From Laetmonice hystrix (lineage: Eukaryota), in contig OZ249438.1 in the NCBI GenBank assembly GCA_965235115.1, forward strand, positions 12,400,001-12,464,000: a stretch of DNA of 64,000 nt, read 5' to 3'. Made by a program: the position numbers. This document shows, piece after piece, positions 36,001 to 42,000 of this stretch (positions are counted from its first letter, which is position 1; each line of letters opens with the position of its first letter).

Positions 36001-39000
36001 AAGCCTCGTGTTCGTTCAATGGTTCCGACCGCCATCATCCGCCAACAGCCAATCCAAACGTGACGTCAGCAAACATTTCACGTCACGTGTTGCGAACCTA
36101 TGACGCACAGTACAAAACGTCATCCAATGTTGAGATGGGATACCTCGCTATGGGACTGTTGTGTATTCCCTGCGCTCTGCTATACCTCGCCACGTATTGT
36201 GCTTTTCACAATAAAAGTCAGAAACGGCCCTCTACGTCCAAAATGGCGAAAGAAAAACGAGGCAAAAAGTACTTCTGCCGTGAACTCGTAATAATCGCTC
36301 TACTTTTCTGTTTCTTCACGTTGTACGTGGCGCAGGAAGTGACGTATGGCGGATACGTGTTTTTGTACGTCACGCGCGCTCTGTGCTGGAGCAACGCGCA
36401 CGGCGCCATGCTGACGTCACTGTTCTGGGCAGCCGTCGGCATTGGTCGGATTCTAAGCGTTCCCTTCTCCGTGTGGTTGGTCCCTATCCAGATGGTCATC
36501 TGTGATTTGGTCCTTGTGTTTTCTGGACTGCTGGTCCTACTTTTCTCAGCGCACCTACACGACGTGATACCATGGGTCGCGACGGCGCTGGCCGGACTTG
36601 GCATGTCAACTTTGTATCCTTCCGCCTATCTGTGGATCTCGCAGCGAGTGAAGGTAGCTGGGTTTGCCACGGGAGTGTTCCTTGTCGGTGGTTCCATGGG
36701 AGCCATGGTTGTCCCACCAGTCACGGGAACACTGCTTCAGAACTGGACGCCATTCTCGTTCGGCTATATGATGTTTGGTGTGAGCACTACAGCGACTGTG
36801 TTGTTTTTAATCGCCTTTTGTTACGAACGTAGATTTATTTCGACACAACACAGTAAAGTAAGTGAATGTTTGAAAGAGGAGGATGTTAAAAACGCAAAGA
36901 AACTTATGTCGGACAATGTTCATATGATCTAGTCATCGTCTTATCCTTATACATATAAATTGAGGCGTCTATGTGTCGAAGAGAATATGTAGGCCTATAT
37001 AAAATTTAGTACAAGTATTGTTTGTTAGTTTCCTTATTGATTTAGGCCTACATTAAATATGATTTATTTATATGGTAAGCACGTAAAACCCTTACAATAA
37101 AGGTTGTTTACTTGTCCTAACGTTATTGTTTATTGAGAGGGGGGTTATGTGTTCTCATTATGGTCCGGTGTCAATAGACTATATACTCTCTCCCGCTAGA
37201 GTGGAAACAATGCCGGTGTCATGGTTACTGGCGATAACATCTCAGTTTTGATTCACAGCCAACCGAAATCTTGTAGAGTTGAAAGTTCCCTTCACATTGT
37301 GTTCAGGGGTAGGTAACAAAGCAAGTCAGCTACAAACGCTCCTTACCCCCCCCCCCCCGCCCCCTCAGTCACTGCTCAGTGGAGCTGGGGTTACAGAAAA
37401 ATGACGTAAAGATTAAAAGTTCCTTTCGATAGCTATTAAACGTTCATTTTTTATAGCAAATAAGCTTTGGGATACATTTAGGAATAGCTTGCGCAATCCA
37501 ACGGTCAATGGCAAAATAATCTATTGAGGAATTTTTTATTGATTGAGCTGTGCTGTCTGCCCGGCCAAGTTCAGTATCGATTGGCATGCAGCGAGGAAGC
37601 CTAGCGACCGGCATTGTTTGGGTCAGGTTGTAAATTATCTCAATCTATTGCCATGCAACCTTTTCAACATAAGGCAACGACGAACCCGCAATCTATAACT
37701 GACAATACTATACCACGTTATACCATCCACATTCAAACATTATGTGTTGTCTACATCATAATGTGGGCGGTATACCACCAGCTTGATGTCAAGGAAAAAT
37801 TCCCAGCAGGAAGCAGGTAATCCAATGACGCATACAGCCACCATTCGTCAGCAATCCAATTTTCAGCGGGTTGTTGTGTAAACGGATCGATTAACTTTAT
37901 TAAAAATGTATAAGGTCCCGGACACAGCAAAAGGAACGAAAGAATCCATAATGTGTGGCAGTTTCTTCCGGGGAAATTTTTACGGAGTCAGAGTGTGGTT
38001 GGGGATTCCGGTGATGGTGAACGTTGAGGCTGGGATAGAGCAGAATTATCCATACGTTCCCGGATGTGAGGATATTCAGAATGGATTACCCCAACGGACG
38101 GGTGATTACTGCTCCATGGGACCTGGTGGTCAGTAACCTTTAGCCGTGTCTGTGTGGTTTATATAGGACTAAACACAAAGAACTCATCAAAACGACGACC
38201 AGTCATCTGTGACAATCGTTCAGCTTCATAGCTTCCGGGGACAATAATCCTCGGACCATAATTTGGTTGAATTTCGGTAACTTTTGGTTACAAGACGTAT
38301 CATCATCAATGGATCGATCCCCTGTTAAAACATTAAGGCAAGTTTGCAAGTCGCAAGATTTCATTATACAGAGGAAGCATTGAAAACTGTGGTTAAGAAC
38401 ATTGAAGACATTGTAAATATCAGACATGGCGAGGGGTGGTCAAAGTGATAACAGGGTTCGCCCGATAGACCTGAGATCAGTCGAGATTCGTCAGGACTAC
38501 GTCCTCTCCATGGCCTGTTACGACGACTACTTCCAGGCCATACGAATGGACAACGACCGACTCTTCAAGATGTCGCTAGCCGTCGGCAACACGGACGTCA
38601 TGCTCAACGGCATATTCAGCTTTACCTACGGGAGATGGGAATCATCTGTGAGGTTTTCCGTCGACCGTCCGTTCTGCCTTGCTGCAGTATGCAGTTCGCT
38701 CAACGTCTTGGAGCAAATGCTGAAATTTGGCGCCAAAGTCCGTGTGCAGACGACACACGGACATAACGCCCTCCACGCCGTCATTCAAGCCGCGGCCATT
38801 GACGAATCCCTAGAGAAAGAACTCATTGTGGTCTGTGCATTCTTGGCGAGGAATCTGGAGCCAGATGATTGGAAGGCATTGCTTGAAGCGGAAGAAAGAG
38901 GCGGGATGCGACCCTTGGAGTATGCGGCAAAGAAGGGCACGTTAGGAATCTTTCACCAACTTTTCAGAACGAGTACAAACATCATGGAGTTCAGTCGACT

Positions 39001-42000
39001 TGGGACGAACTTTCTTGCATCATATGATCTTTCCGATTACGAATCTTACAGCCAAGGGCACAGACATAACAAATCGCCGTTACTGTCTCTGGCGCGATTG
39101 GCTAAGGGGAAGGAATCCAACGTGTATGCCAGCGAGTTATTTACGGATCCAACCATAGCGATCTGGATTCGCAACAAGGTGTTATGCAATGCTCCGTGGC
39201 TTGTACTATGGTTTTTTCTACGGGTAATATATGCGTTTCTCGTTATATACAGTTGGTTTGGCGTGTACGGATTTGGAGATTCTGGTGGCGAGGATGTCCC
39301 GAGTGATGGCACGGAGGATGAGAACGTCACTGGACTCTTACCGTTAAACTTACCCGACTGTATCAGCAACTGCCACAGTTTCCCATTCACACGAGCAAGC
39401 GCTTTGAAGGCCGCGCTCGCCCTTTCGGCTATTTCCTTTCTGGTTGATTTCATCGAGTCAGCGATTGTCCTATGGAACTATTGCCGACCTCGCCAGAGGT
39501 TCGTCAGGACACCCATTGTTCTTGGTGGCCTCAGCACAGCACTTGTCTACAGAACAGGTCATTTCTGTCTAACCGTCTGCGTTCCTGTCTATTATCTTTA
39601 CCTTTCCCGAGTCAGTAGAGAAACTCGTAGTCAGTACCAAATATACTATCTCTCGGTCGTCTATGCTACATGTGCATTATTCGTGTCAATATCATTTGGA
39701 TATTTTGTGCAACTTTTTCCAGTTATCGGCCACTTGCAAATGCTTTGTGCCCGTCTTTTGGCATTGACACTTAAAATGGTGTGTGTGTTTGTGATATATT
39801 TGACTTTCTATACGTTTGCGCTGGGATCTTTACTGAGACTGTATCAGACACCAGGAGACACAGGTAACAATCCGTCCTACGCAGCGTTCAAACTGCTGCT
39901 GAACCAGTACAGTCTGGATGAGGTCACCACAAACGGCGGCCATATGCTCGTGTTTTTCCACGTTACGTTCTACTGCGTGACGACATTTCTCCTGCTGCAC
40001 TTTTCCATCGGAATCGTCGTGAACGCTGTGACGTCACTGGTTCATGTGCTGAACGTCATCACGAGTGTGGAACTACTGAACGCTGCGTGCCTGGTCGAGA
40101 CGCGCGTGAGCTGGCTCCTGGGGAAACTTTACGGACCCCTTCAGCAGCTGGTTTATACTCTCGAAGGTGGCCGCGTCTTTCTGAATGTTTTAGTTCCCGA
40201 CGCAGGTCTTCCCAAGGAATTTATGTCCTGGATGTATAAGTAATTTGCTTTCCAGATCGACCGTTAACCGCGCCATGCACACAGCCCCTTGCCCTCAAAC
40301 ATGAACGACCTGGCCGTTGCATGAGCGGCATAAATTCTATTTCAGGGTCGACAGCCCACTAAAACTAGGCTGTCCCAAGAGCTTTGCCATGTTTGCTTTT
40401 TGGGTTCACTTATTTTAGACTTTGCATCTCCATTTATCGCTGTGATTATATATTAAGCCACCTTTGAGGATGAAGGTTTAATACAGGTTAACTAGCTTGA
40501 TGAATAGTTTAACTCAAGCAGGCTTGCAGGCCAGTGCTAACGAGTGGAGTGTCTCACTGTAATGTTTAAAGTAATCATTACTGAAGCATAATGCATTTTT
40601 TTGCGACCGAGTCCAAATGATACATTGTTTCAGCAGTCACATGCAGCAGTGTGGTAAAATGAATATTGCATGACGGAGCGAGATCGACAGATACCAAGCC
40701 GTATATGCACTCGACCACGCCTCGAGCACAACAATCGTGCCATGCAAACCTCCTGACCTTGCGCTGTCATGCAATATACCAGCTTTGAAAGTTCACCGTG
40801 TATCTCCCATGGACTTGAACGAGTTCAACGCCATCCATGTGTGTATTTCAATCATCCTAGTGATCGTATGTGATAATGAACAGAACACAAATCCACCAGT
40901 TCACTGTTAGTTAAACTGTATTATATAGTGTTAAACAGTACCCAGACCCATCGACACGTGTAAGAGATTGGTATAACGATGGATGCGGTCCACAGGCACA
41001 TGTGTGCAGACGTGCTTTAGTTTACGTAAACAATATAAAAAGTAACTTGCGCGCCAGTAACATCTGTATTGGATGGTGTCATCTATACAGCAGTTCACAT
41101 TACATAAAGAGCGCGTATTATAAAGACTGAACTATAAGAGAATTTTATTTGTTATATAAGTCAAACTATGAAACTTTTCTACTGTTATGTCATTGTCTTT
41201 ATGTTATATAACGTTTCTAAGATAGCCTTTCACTCCCTGGGTTGCATCAGAAAAGAAAAGAAAATATGAAATTCATATTTTTACCATTTTTTCTCAAAAT
41301 GTTGGACCGGAGTAATAGATATGGCCTTGTTGTAATGTATTAGAAGAAAGATCTAAGTCAGGAGCTGACCTGAAGAACATCGATCGTCCCGTGAGATTGT
41401 AAAATGATAACGTCTAATATACATCAGGCGTAACGTGCAGCCTTCGCTCATTTTTAGCCATGTGCGAGCTTTCACCCTACAGGTAAACATTCGAATCGGT
41501 TTGCGGTGTTTTTCTCGTCAATATCCACAATTATCACGTGCAAGTCATCCACACACGAGGCAGATATAGAGGGAGGGTTTGGAGGGAGGGGGTGGAGTTT
41601 TACCCACGTGGGAAACATGAACACCACGACCGCCTGGCATTGGGAGGCGGTCCGAGTGCGAGCCGTTATCTACGAGGCATATTGCCGAATAATTCCCTGC
41701 TGCGATGTTGCTTTCATCTGCTGGGCGTAATAAGAAAACCATCAACGACCAGGGAGGCATCTCTCCATATTTCTTCAAGTCGTCCCAACGCTGCAATTTG
41801 GCGTGTCGCACCCCTTGCCCTGGCCTTGCAGGAGGCTGGTGCTTTCATTGGCGTGACTGCATTCTTGTCCTGAGGTCGATGGAAACCGACACTTGCATAA
41901 TACGCACTGCGCCTGCATGTGCTCCAGGATCACTTCCATGGCCTTTGGGGATCGCAAGTTCAATGCAACATGTAAATGTACATAGAGCCCAGCAGCAAGT

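What the first reader, a model, noticed from the sequence alone, without database searches (positions are those of the whole stretch)
38426..40243. Intronless, highly divergent TRPV-like channel with an altered S6 gate motif
A single-exon 605-aa ORF sits among intron-rich neighbours. It has few ankyrin repeats, six TM segments, a short pore loop and a very short C-terminus with no recognisable TRP box. Where TRPV/TRPA channels have the conserved S6 motif LLNxLIAxM, it reads LLLHFSIGIV (Asn to His). This suggests unusual gating, pH or metal sensitivity, or a non-conducting subunit. It may belong to the poorly characterised TRPVL group reported from annelids and cnidarians, or to a lineage-specific retroposed expansion of sensory receptors. 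No function is known to me.
Basis: partly seen in the sequence, partly recalled or inferred. Interest (0 to 1): 0.65.

Follow-up and report, generated by a model that had tools for sequence, protein, structure and literature searches.

The report
Divergent single-exon TRPV-like channel gene
This is a real, uninterrupted gene for a short, fast-evolving relative of the TRPV sensory ion channels, one of a very large gene family, and it is unusual mainly because the parts that line and gate the ion pore have been rewritten.

Summary
The 605-codon ORF at 38426-40243 (+) and its LLLHFSIGIV motif are real. The protein alone gives only sub-threshold ankyrin matches. It has one 63%-identical orthologue, P0001, and belongs to a family of 408 cluster representatives of about 600 aa.

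A 72-sequence family profile matches TRPV6, TRPV5, TRPV3, TRPV1, TRPV4 and TRPV2 structures (best E 8.6e-49). The AlphaFold model (pLDDT 86.6) aligns over nearly its whole length with TRPV chains only. The TRPV-like reading is therefore supported.

The S6 asparagine is N in 129 of 132 other family members. It is His only here, and the orthologue keeps N. The changes L to S and A to G, the loss of the filter acid and the loss of the TRP-helix QR are shared by both orthologues. Their pore module keeps 47-53% of family-conserved residues, against 80% in typical members.

The ORF is under purifying selection: 0 of 500 neutral simulations stayed open. No retroposition hallmarks were found.

TRPVL membership, expression, assembly and conduction could not be tested.

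Verdict: a divergent member of a known channel kind with a remodelled pore, of moderate interest.

The parts
38426..40243 (+). Complete single-exon coding sequence, 605 aa plus stop, of a TRPV-type channel subunit
   Evidence: ORF list. Orthologue P0001 is 63% identical over 100% of the length. Family of 408 representatives. The profile hits TRPV6 at E 8.6e-49. The fold search returns TRPV chains only among the 45 listed rows.
38522..38971 (+). Reduced ankyrin-repeat domain, about four helix pairs, residues about 33-182
   Evidence: Sub-threshold Pfam Ank_2 at 85-180. TRPV4 ankyrin-domain chain 3jxi_A at E 0.0097 over 72-182. Helix pairs in the model. The family profile starts aligning at TRPV6 residue 124.
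38981..39148 (+). Linker domain: beta-hairpin (186-201) and short helices leading to pre-S1, residues 186-241
   Evidence: Secondary structure of the model. Holds the family-invariant Y205 and P218 and the nearly invariant D201, R213 and S217.
39149..39709 (+). S1-S4 helix bundle, residues 242-428, including a low-confidence extracellular S1-S2 loop (283-322) with the N300-V-T sequon
   Evidence: Model helices 242-282, 323-353, 372-396 and 403-428. W247 is invariant; N300 is N in 65 of 70 and C312 is C in 57 of 60. Sequon listed.
39728..39844 (+). S4-S5 linker and S5, residues 435-473. G435 is kept; the family residues Q442 and M444 of the Q-R-M motif are changed, so the motif reads A-R-L
39872..39925 (+). 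Pore helix and selectivity-filter stretch, residues 483-500 (YAAFKLLLNQYSLDEV). The filter position that is D or N in most of the family is Ser496
   Evidence: Alignment to TRPV6 FLTIID. Column counts are D 37, N 19, E 5, S 3 of 70 and D 75, N 33 of 136 non-gap.
39938..40042 (+). S6, residues 505-539, with the gate motif H525-F-S-I-G where the family has N-F-L-I-A
39998..40000 (+). Codon CAC = His525, one base away from the Asn codon AAC
   Evidence: N in 129 of 132 non-gap family members, His in none, and the orthologue has N.
40049..40108 (+). Helix in the position of the TRP helix, residues 542-561. It has no tryptophan (T546), the family Q549-R550 reads E-L, and E558 and R560 are kept
40157..40243 (+). 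C-terminal beta-strands (578-591) and a short tail ending WMYK
   Evidence: Model strands 578-580 and 583-591 and helix 597-604. The tail is nearly identical in P0001.

Best explanation
The ORF is a genuine, selectively maintained, single-exon gene for a subunit of a TRPV-type six-transmembrane cation channel.

Architecture. It has a reduced TRPV layout: about four ankyrin repeats, a beta-hairpin linker, an S1-S4 bundle, an S5-pore helix-S6 pore, a tryptophan-less TRP helix and a short C-terminal beta-strand tail.

Family. It belongs to a very large, star-like family of about 600-residue TRPV5/6-like proteins. Together with one orthologue from another genome it forms a long branch inside that family.

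Pore changes. On that branch the cytosolic domain and S1-S4 stayed ordinary for the family, but the pore and gate module was rewritten:
- S4-S5 linker: Q-R-M became A-R-L (G-R-L in the orthologue).
- Filter: the D/N position became S (E in the orthologue).
- S6: N-F-L-I-A became N-F-S-I-G.
- TRP helix: Q-R became E-L (E-H in the orthologue).
In this genome only, one further base change then turned the S6 Asn into His.

Inferred, not shown. The protein still assembles as a tetramer. It conducts cations with altered permeation (no TRPV5/6-style acidic ring at the filter) and altered gating. A ring of four His residues sits where other TRP channels swing an Asn into the open pore, which would make the gate sensitive to protons or transition metals.
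For: Real gene under selection:
- The orthologue P0001 is 383/605 identical and 468/605 similar, with only three internal in-frame indels of 2, 1 and 1 residues.
- In 500 simulations of neutral drift to the same protein divergence, 0 kept the frame open, with a mean of 11.2 stops.
- Identity between the two is 82/105 at family-conserved columns against 301/500 elsewhere, Fisher p = 5e-4.
- Lineage-specific changes at family-majority sites are balanced, 9 in the window and 10 in P0001.

TRPV type:
- The profile of 72 family sequences hits TRPV6 at E 8.6e-49 over profile 33-571 and chain 124-620. It then hits TRPV5 (4e-43), TRPV3 (4e-37) and TRPV1, TRPV4 and TRPV2 (about 1e-31 to 1e-30).
- Ion_trans is found in 24 of 72 members.
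- The model has pLDDT 86.6 and pTM 0.85.
- Foldseek: all 45 listed rows are TRPV1, TRPV3, TRPV5 or TRPV6, with 569-614 aligned columns and TM 0.48-0.64.
- Language-model neighbours are ankyrin-plus-ion-channel TRP clusters at 0.96-0.98.

Pore remodelling:
- The window keeps 0.47 and P0001 0.53 of 32 family-conserved pore-module columns. The other 70 members average 0.80 +/- 0.11, and only 1 of 70 is lower than the window.
- The N-terminal domain (0.75 against 0.79) and S1-S4 (0.72 against 0.79) are typical.
- 8 of the 12 strongly conserved columns at which the window differs lie between residues 442 and 529.

Role of the S6 Asn:
- It faces the pore in open TRPV structures and promotes pore hydration (PMC6219692, passages read).
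- It is 93.7% conserved across TRP channels, but TRPML1 has S and TRPS has T there, and TRPA1 has G at the A680 position (PMC9242649, Table 1). A non-Asn residue is therefore compatible with a working channel.
Against: - No expression, assembly or current data exist for this protein or, as far as I could find, for any member of its family.
- On its own the protein does not reach any Pfam channel model.
- The pore module is the least conserved part between the two orthologues (56% against 63-68% elsewhere). This is the opposite of what is usual for a working channel pore and fits a relaxed or non-conducting pore.
- In NaChBac only Asp was tolerated at the equivalent Asn (cited in PMC6219692).
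- L678 to Ser has no precedent in the fingerprint table.
- Partitioned trees show only a modest extra lengthening of the stem branch in the pore module, 2.3 times the median tip length against 1.8 times for the rest.
- His525 could be a polymorphism or a base-call error in this assembly.
Confidence: 0.55

Rival explanations
1. A non-conducting or modulatory subunit. The protein keeps the TRPV fold, the cytosolic domain and the ability to assemble, but its pore no longer conducts. It would act by co-assembling with conducting paralogues or through its ankyrin and linker domain.
For: Conservation is ordinary in the N-terminal domain and S1-S4, but in the pore module it falls to 0.47-0.53 of family-conserved columns, where only 1 of 70 members is lower than the window. 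The pore module is the least conserved region between the orthologues, 56%. The filter acid, the S6 Asn (in this genome), L527, A529 and the TRP-helix QR are all lost.
Against: The lower-gate Ile528, the S4-S5 Gly435, the pore-helix Y485 and F488, the filter-adjacent N493 and E558/R560 are retained. Acidic D498 and E499 lie just after the filter. The pore-lining helices are modelled with high confidence. Functional TRP channels exist with S or T at the Asn position. No partner is known, and no paralogue lies in the window.
Confidence: 0.25
2. The family is TRPVL, the vanilloid-like sister group of TRPV, rather than a TRPV5/6-like offshoot of TRPV proper.
For: Like the published TRPVL consensus, the family lacks the TRP-helix tryptophan. 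Individual members match Pfam channel and ankyrin models only weakly. TRPVL is described as sister to TRPV (PMC12980990, passages), so a TRPV-first result against solved structures is expected either way, because no structure named TRPVL appeared among the listed hits.
Against: The published TRPVL fingerprint is W at the rTRPV1-666 position, F at 678 and A at 697 (PMC9242649, Table 1). The family consensus has Y or F (66 and 56 of 132), L (122 of 132) and M, L or V there, which is the TRPV pattern at the first two. The best solved matches are TRPV5 and TRPV6, with a TIID-like M-L-N-M-V-D filter. That consensus rests on few cnidarian and annelid sequences, so this test is weak.
Confidence: 0.25
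3. A gene that has lately lost function in this genome. Asn to His at the gate is a disabling mutation, and the frame is still open only because too little time has passed.
For: His at this column is unique among the 133 sequences aligned there, the window included. It is a single base change from AAC. Asn is hard to replace in NaChBac.
Against: The frame is intact over 605 codons. There is no excess of lineage-specific changes in the window copy over P0001, 9 against 10. The window's tip branch equals that of P0001 outside the pore (0.28 and 0.28), although it is longer in the pore partition (0.51 against 0.29).
Confidence: 0.08
4. An ordinary multi-exon gene whose upstream coding exons were missed.
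For: A possible acceptor (tatcag) lies immediately before the ATG and after the in-frame stop. TRPV6 has about 120 more N-terminal residues than the family profile covers.
Against: Conservation with the orthologue starts exactly at this Met (MARGG against MAKGG). P0001's 36 extra N-terminal residues have no counterpart in this frame. Family members are themselves about 600 aa, median 599.5, with 121 of 150 between 550 and 680. None of the 150 family proteins hits the window outside the ORF by tblastn. G at -3 and G at +4 flank the ATG. A 5'-UTR intron is not excluded.
Confidence: 0.07

Closest known systems
TRPV5 / TRPV6 (epithelial calcium channels)
   Same: They are the best sequence-profile matches (E 8.6e-49 to about 3e-42) and the top fold matches. 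They share the same domain order: ankyrin domain, beta linker, S1-S6, TRP helix, C-terminal strand. The family filter M-L-N-M-V-D aligns with TRPV6 F-L-T-I-I-D, whose Asp541 forms the calcium-selective constriction (PMC5890290, abstract and passages). The family S6 motif N-F-L-I-A matches N-x-L-I-A.
   Different: About four ankyrin repeats are modelled, fewer than in TRPV5/6 (six, recalled), and the profile only aligns from TRPV6 residue 124. There are 44 residues after the TRP helix, so there is no long regulatory C-terminus. There is no TRP-box tryptophan. In the window protein the filter Asp position is Ser and S6 reads H-F-S-I-G. Identity to solved TRPVs is 13-17%.
TRPVL (vanilloid-like family of cnidarians, annelids and molluscs)
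   Same: Ankyrin-bearing group-1 TRP, sister to TRPV. It has no tryptophan in the TRP helix and a reduced number of fingerprint residues (7 of 12; PMC9242649, Table 1).
   Different: The published consensus has W, F and A at rTRPV1 positions 666, 678 and 697. The family here has Y/F, L and M/L/V. Membership could not be tested by phylogeny.
TRPA1
   Same: It has Gly at the A680 position and lacks the TRP-helix tryptophan (PMC9242649, Table 1), as the window protein does. A painless-like TRPA cluster is among the language-model neighbours, at rank 16.
   Different: TRPA-type and TRPN-type clusters rank below the TRPV-type clusters among the language-model neighbours. No TRPA1 chain appears among the listed sequence or fold hits. 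TRPA1 has many more ankyrin repeats (recalled).

Membership tests
TRP channel superfamily, group 1, TRPV-type architecture | Six transmembrane helices with a re-entrant pore helix between S5 and S6 | tested here: met
   Model helices and pore helix. Hydrophobic segments. Alignments of 569-614 columns to TRPV chains.
TRP channel superfamily, group 1, TRPV-type architecture | N-terminal ankyrin-repeat domain followed by a beta-hairpin linker, and a C-terminal strand after the TRP helix | tested here: met
   About four helix pairs at 33-182, strands at 186-201, and strands at 578-591. TRPV4 ankyrin-domain hit at E 0.0097. Pfam ankyrin matches are below the cut-off.
TRP channel superfamily, group 1, TRPV-type architecture | Significant sequence relationship to TRPV channels | tested here: met
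   Not direct: the protein alone finds only ankyrin proteins. It is transitive. The protein matches family members at E 1e-34 and weaker, and the family profile matches TRPV6 at 8.6e-49.
TRP channel superfamily, group 1, TRPV-type architecture | S6 fingerprint N-x-L-I-A (rTRPV1 N676, L678, I679, A680; PMC9242649) | tested here: not met
   The window reads H-F-S-I-G, so only Ile is kept. The orthologue reads N-F-S-I-G. The family has N in 129, L in 122, I in 113 and A in 126 of 132.
TRP channel superfamily, group 1, TRPV-type architecture | TRP-helix tryptophan (rTRPV1 W697) and S4-S5 linker glycine (G563) | tested here: inconclusive
   Gly435 is present (G in 118 of 134 non-gap). The Trp position is T546 in the window and M, L, V, Q or I in the family, never predominantly W. 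A helix is nevertheless modelled there.
TRP channel superfamily, group 1, TRPV-type architecture | Placement inside the TRPV clade in a tree with TRPV, TRPVL, TRPA and other reference sets | not testable with these tools
   No named reference TRP sequences could be obtained.
TRPV5/6 subgroup | Acidic residue forming the selectivity-filter constriction (TRPV6 D541) | tested here: not met
   Ser496 in the window and Glu in P0001. The family has D 75, N 33, E 10 and S 8 of 136 non-gap.
TRPVL | Published consensus fingerprint W - N G Phi F W N F I A A (PMC9242649, Table 1) | tested here: inconclusive
   The family differs at the 666, 678 and 697 positions. The published consensus rests on few sequences, and only the positions that can be placed by fixed offset from the S6 Asn were compared.
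TRPVL | Clusters with Nematostella and Capitella TRPVL in a phylogeny or similarity network | not testable with these tools
Processed retrogene | Poly(A) remnant, nearby polyadenylation signal and flanking target-site duplication | tested here: not met
   Between 40244 and 43800 there is no AATAAA, no A-run of 8 or more and no A-rich 30-mer. No direct repeat brackets the ORF. GC3 is 0.565 against 0.592 in the neighbouring MFS exon. An ancient retroposition at the root of the family is not excluded.
Processed retrogene | An intron-bearing parent gene elsewhere in the genome | not testable with these tools

The most novel reading that the evidence does not exclude
The window gene and its orthologue are a natural experiment in rewiring a TRP pore. 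This TRPV-type subunit has been held under purifying selection while its S4-S5 linker, filter, S6 gate and TRP helix all departed from an otherwise strictly conserved family pattern. In this species the almost universal S6 asparagine became histidine. If the channel conducts, four histidines at the gate hinge would make it a proton- or zinc-gated TRP channel with a new gating chemistry. If it does not conduct, it is a dedicated regulatory pseudo-channel subunit within a large and, as far as the sources searchable here show, unnamed family of short TRPV-like receptors.
Probability: 0.25. Interest if true: 0.6.

Novelty: new member of a known kind. Interest (0 to 1): 0.35.

Why it matters
The S6 asparagine is one of the most conserved residues of TRP and related cation channels and is thought to switch into the pore on opening (PMC6219692). 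A selectively maintained natural His variant, with an Asn-bearing orthologue as a built-in control, offers a simple swap experiment on that gating model.

The family around it (408 representatives at 50% identity) is a reduced TRPV architecture: four ankyrin repeats, no TRP tryptophan and a short tail. It carried no names in any source I could query. Lineage-specific TRP expansions of this sort are reported to be common but functionally unexplored (bioRxiv 10.1101/2021.11.14.466824, passages read).

Otherwise the finding is an ordinary divergent paralogue.

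Tried and rejected
Homologue and name searches:
- Word-index search with the protein and with the 72-sequence alignment: only P0001 was returned.
- The same search with family member P0002: only P0002 itself and one 44%-identical protein (P0151) were returned, with no names. The family's public annotation and organisms therefore stayed unknown.
- Cluster look-up for accessions and names: the shared database was switched off, so it was not done.

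Tetramer prediction of the pore module (residues 431-565, four copies, with the family alignment):
- The queue was full every time, so no job ran and there is no result.

Other checks:
- Paralogues in the window: tblastn of 150 family proteins gave 164 hits, none outside the ORF.
- Retroposition hallmarks: none found.
- Faster evolution in the window lineage: rejected at family-majority sites, 9 against 10 changes. FastTree gives the window a longer pore-module tip, 0.51 against 0.29.
- Rfam: only a weak tRNA hit far from the gene, which ARAGORN did not confirm.
- Solved-structure search with the second MFS exon: no hit.

Steps not done:
- dN/dS was not computed, because only the protein of P0001 is available.
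- A tree with TRPV, TRPVL and TRPA references was not made, because no such sequences could be brought in.
- The neighbours' exons were scanned one ORF block at a time.
Gene structure and copy number of paralogues in this or other animal genomes therefore stayed unchecked.
- bioRxiv supplements are closed, and the supplementary accession list of PMC9242649 was not opened. Both could bear on the TRPVL question.

Full report
1. THE OBSERVATION

An ATG-to-stop ORF of 605 codons lies at 38426-40243 on the + strand. The stop-to-stop frame begins only three codons upstream, at 38417. The ATG has G at -3 and G at +4. A frame of that length has a chance probability of about 2e-13 per start.

The motif LLLHFSIGIV is at residues 522-531, and His525 is the codon CAC at 39998-40000.

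The window has two N stretches (5329-5480 and 61619-61763). They were left alone and are far from the gene. Nothing in the window was taken for human sequence.

2. WHAT THE PROTEIN IS

On its own the protein is almost silent.
- Pfam gives only Ank_2 and Ank_5 at 17.4-17.5 bits against cut-offs of 27, and no channel model.
- A single-sequence search of solved structures finds designed ankyrin proteins and, at E 0.0097, the TRPV4 ankyrin domain.

The word-index protein search finds a single relative, P0001. It is 645 aa, 63% identical over the full length and unnamed.

The exhaustive HMMER search of cluster representatives finds much more.
- 408 proteins at E <= 1e-3, 262 at <= 1e-10 and 11 at <= 1e-30.
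- Apart from P0001, the 150 listed are 22-34% identical.
- Their median length is 599.5 aa, and 121 of 150 are between 550 and 680 aa.

I aligned the window protein with 71 of these 150. I chose the ones that matched as one near-full-length stretch and left the other 79 out of this alignment (A1).

Results from A1:
- Among the 72 members, Ion_trans is found in 24, PKD_channel in 9 and Ank_2 in 7. The window protein itself finds none at E <= 0.001.
- The A1 profile matches TRPV6 at E 8.6e-49 in one stretch, from profile position 33 to 571 and chain residue 124 to 620.
- It then matches TRPV5 (4e-43), TRPV3 (4e-37), and TRPV1, TRPV4 and TRPV2 (about 1e-31 to 1e-30). Designed ankyrin proteins are interspersed.

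With A1 as its alignment, AlphaFold2 gives a confident model with mean pLDDT 86.6 and pTM 0.85. Low-confidence parts are residues 1-22, the S1-S2 loop and the last three residues.

Foldseek against the PDB lists 45 rows. All are TRPV1, TRPV3, TRPV5 or TRPV6 chains, aligned over 569-614 columns with TM 0.48-0.64 and 13-17% identity.

Language-model neighbours of the window protein and of family member P0002 are ankyrin-plus-channel TRP clusters. TRPV-type clusters rank first, then TRPA-, TRPC- and TRPN-type clusters. These are leads only.

Anatomy from the model:

| Element | Residues |
|---|---|
| About four ankyrin-type helix pairs | 33-182 |
| Beta-hairpin | 186-201 |
| Linker helices | up to about 241 |
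| S1 | 242-282 |
| Disordered extracellular loop, with the family-conserved N300-V-T sequon and C312 | 283-322 |
| S2 | 323-353 |
| S3 | 372-396 |
| S4 | 403-428 |
| S4-S5 linker and S5 | 435-473 |
| Pore helix | 483-491 |
| S6 | 505-539 |
| Helix in the TRP-helix position | 542-561 |
| Two C-terminal strands | 578-591 |
| Short tail | 592-605 |

This is a trimmed TRPV subunit.
- The profile aligns to TRPV6 only from residue 124, so the first ankyrin repeats of TRPV6 have no counterpart.
- Only 44 residues follow the TRP helix.

3. THE GATE MOTIF AND THE PORE MODULE

In an alignment of all 151 sequences, the S6 column of His525 is N in 129 of the 132 other sequences that have a residue there. 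The three exceptions are A, V and W. His occurs only in the window protein, and the orthologue P0001 has N. So Asn to His is one base change (AAC to CAC) that arose after the two species split.

The next changes are older and shared by both orthologues:
- L527 (L in 122 of 132) is Ser.
- A529 (A in 126 of 132) is Gly.
- The lower-gate Ile528 is kept.

The family S6 consensus N-F-L-I-A is the N-x-L-I-A fingerprint of TRP channels (PMC9242649, Table 1, passages read).

Other changes in the same module:
- The family's S4-S5 linker motif Q-R-M reads A-R-L in the window and G-R-L in P0001.
- The filter stretch M-L-N-M-V-D, which HMMER aligns to TRPV6 F-L-T-I-I-D, reads L-L-N-Q-Y-S in the window and L-L-N-Q-F-E in P0001. 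The acidic or amide position is D in 75 and N in 33 of 136.
- The TRP-helix remnant I-x-x-x-Q-R-L reads I-T-S-V-E-L-L. The position of the TRP tryptophan, 21 residues after the S6 Asn, is T here and is not W in the family at large.

Counted over the 105 columns where at least 60% of the other 70 A1 members agree:

| Region | Window | P0001 | Other 70 members |
|---|---|---|---|
| N-terminal domain | 0.75 | 0.79 | 0.79 +/- 0.08 |
| S1-S4 | 0.72 | 0.72 | 0.79 +/- 0.13 |
| Pore module (431-565) | 0.47 | 0.53 | 0.80 +/- 0.11 |

In the pore module only 1 of 70 members scores below the window. The pore module is also the least conserved region between the two orthologues: 56%, against 68% in the N-terminal domain, 63% in S1-S4 and 65% in the tail.

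4. IS IT A LIVE GENE?

- The two orthologues are 383/605 identical and 468/605 similar. They differ by three internal in-frame indels of 2, 1 and 1 residues, plus 36 extra N-terminal residues in P0001.
- Random substitution of the window ORF down to 63% protein identity took about 0.22 changes per site. It produced a mean of 11.2 stops, and 0 of 500 replicates stayed open.
- Identity is higher at family-conserved columns (82/105) than elsewhere (301/500), Fisher p = 5e-4.
- At sites where the family has a majority residue, the window carries 9 private changes and P0001 carries 10. The window copy therefore shows no sign of recent decay. FastTree on the pore partition does give it a longer tip, 0.51 against 0.29.
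- dN/dS could not be computed, because only the protein of P0001 is held.

5. FAMILY POSITION

A quick maximum-likelihood tree of A1 (LG+G4, SH-aLRT support only, midpoint root for drawing) has these features:
- The window and P0001 join with 100% support.
- Their stem branch is 1.39 changes per column. The median tip length is 0.7.
- The pair lies inside an 18-row group with 99% support.
- Overall the tree is a star-like radiation.

The gene is therefore a long-branch member of the family, not its outgroup. Partitioned FastTree runs give a stem of 1.8 times the median tip outside the pore and 2.3 times in the pore module, so the extra acceleration in the pore is modest by this measure.

A tree with TRPV, TRPVL and TRPA reference sets could not be made. 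No named reference proteins were obtainable (and one search was switched off), and other sequence may not be typed in.

The only TRPVL test open to me was the published fingerprint, W - N G Phi F W N F I A A (PMC9242649, Table 1).
- The family agrees with TRPVL in lacking the TRP tryptophan.
- The family has Y or F, L and M/L/V where TRPVL has W, F and A.
- This leans towards a TRPV5/6-like offshoot, but it is weak evidence.

Papers on an abalone and on choanoflagellates describe TRPVL as a small sister group of TRPV. The abalone paper also reports unclassified TRPV-near genes in molluscs (PMC12980990, passages; bioRxiv 10.64898/2026.06.15.732245, passages).

6. GENE STRUCTURE AND SURROUNDINGS

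The coding sequence is one exon. Against hidden upstream coding exons:
- Conservation with P0001 begins exactly at this Met.
- Family members are equally short.
- No family-like coding sequence lies elsewhere in the window: 164 tblastn hits, 0 outside the ORF.

A 5'-UTR intron is possible, because tatcag precedes the ATG.

P0001's extra 36 residues look like a longest-ORF start choice. That would mean the orthologue is also an uninterrupted frame. This is an inference.

Retroposition hallmarks are absent.
- There is no AATAAA, A-run or A-rich stretch in the 3.5 kb downstream.
- No direct repeat brackets the ORF.
- GC3 is 0.565, against 0.592 in the neighbouring exon.

Neighbours:
- Upstream on the same strand is an MFS_1 transporter-like gene in two large ORF blocks, 35102-35674 and 35826-36932, with a probable intron between them.
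- Further upstream is a TXNDC16-like gene with small exons at 14398-14715, 19457-19735 and 22443-22679. A reverse-transcriptase ORF lies on the opposite strand at 15044-16690.
- Downstream are minisatellite arrays at 43.8-49.5 kb, 50.1-50.4 kb and 52.5-53.6 kb.

7. HOW IT MOST LIKELY WORKS

Shown here: a TRPV-type fold, a large family, purifying selection, and a remodelled pore and gate module.

From established knowledge:
- TRPV subunits form tetramers around an S5-P-S6 pore.
- The S6 Asn turns into the pore on opening and hydrates it (PMC6219692, passages).
- In TRPV6 the filter Asp ring sets calcium selectivity (PMC5890290, abstract and passages).

Inferred:
- The protein assembles as a tetramer.
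- It lacks TRPV5/6-style calcium selectivity.
- Its gating is altered. In this species a titratable, metal-binding His sits at the hinge.

Working channels exist with S (TRPML1) or T (TRPS) at the Asn position and with G (TRPA1) at the Ala position. That keeps conduction plausible.

The low conservation of the pore between the orthologues keeps the non-conducting or modulatory rival alive.

My odds:
- TRPV/TRPVL-clade channel homologue: 0.95.
- Live gene: 0.9.
- Conducting, alone or with partners: about 0.55.
- Modulatory or non-conducting: about 0.25.

8. WHAT STAYED OPEN

- The organism, expression, paralogue gene structures and names of family members are unknown.
- The closed collections (metagenome contigs, viral contigs) were not touched, and the prokaryote-only genome collection was not used.

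9. VERDICT

This is a real and correctly described ORF. It is a divergent, single-exon member of a large TRPV-like family. The striking His is a private change laid on an older, shared remodelling of the pore. It is a new member of a known kind, of moderate interest. A clean Asn/His swap experiment is the obvious follow-up.

Noticed in passing
window 35102-36932 (+): MFS_1 transporter-like gene just upstream on the same strand. It lies in two large ORF blocks in different frames (35102-35674 and 35826-36932) with a polypyrimidine...cag acceptor near 35825. The immediate neighbour is therefore intron-poor too. The second block has no solved-structure match.
   Followed up: partly
window 14398-22679 (+) and 15044-16690 (-): TXNDC16-like gene with small, widely spaced exons: TXNDC16_N, TXNDC16_2nd and Thioredoxin hits, the first two below Pfam cut-offs. 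A 548-aa reverse-transcriptase ORF (RVT_1, E 6.5e-34) lies on the opposite strand, apparently in one of its introns.
   Followed up: partly
window 43847-49539, 50060-50396, 52529-53599: Dense minisatellite arrays with units of 28, 22, 59, 62 and about 107 nt, the last G-rich. They create long overlapping ORFs on both strands and spurious weak Pfam hits (FLYWCH_u, KorB_C and others).
   Followed up: partly
window 17671-17742 (-): Rfam tRNA hit just above the gathering score (31.8 against 29 bits). ARAGORN does not call it. Possibly a tRNA-derived repeat or pseudogene.
   Followed up: partly
window 63044-64000 (+): A frame of 319 residues that is open to the end of the window. It is low-complexity (a Glu run, His/Gln-rich and Pro/Ser/Thr-rich stretches) and has no Pfam match. 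It may be a large exon of a disordered protein.
   Followed up: no
window 40196-40240 (+), residues 591-605: The C-terminal tail PDAGLPKEFMSWMYK is nearly identical in the orthologue (PDAGLPKDFVSWVYK), although the rest of the family does not share it. It may be a clade-specific C-terminal motif.
   Followed up: no
window 39323-39331 and 39359-39361 (+), residues 300-302 and 312: The N-x-T sequon (N in 65 of 70 family members) and a cysteine (57 of 60) in the otherwise variable, low-confidence S1-S2 extracellular loop are conserved across the family.
   Followed up: partly
window 1-64000: CpG observed/expected is mosaic. It is 0.24-0.65 over most of 1-24 kb (apart from one 2-kb bin at 0.84) and about 0.9-1.0 around the channel gene (36-42 kb) and at 54-62 kb. 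Two N stretches (5329-5480 and 61619-61763) were left as they are.
   Followed up: no
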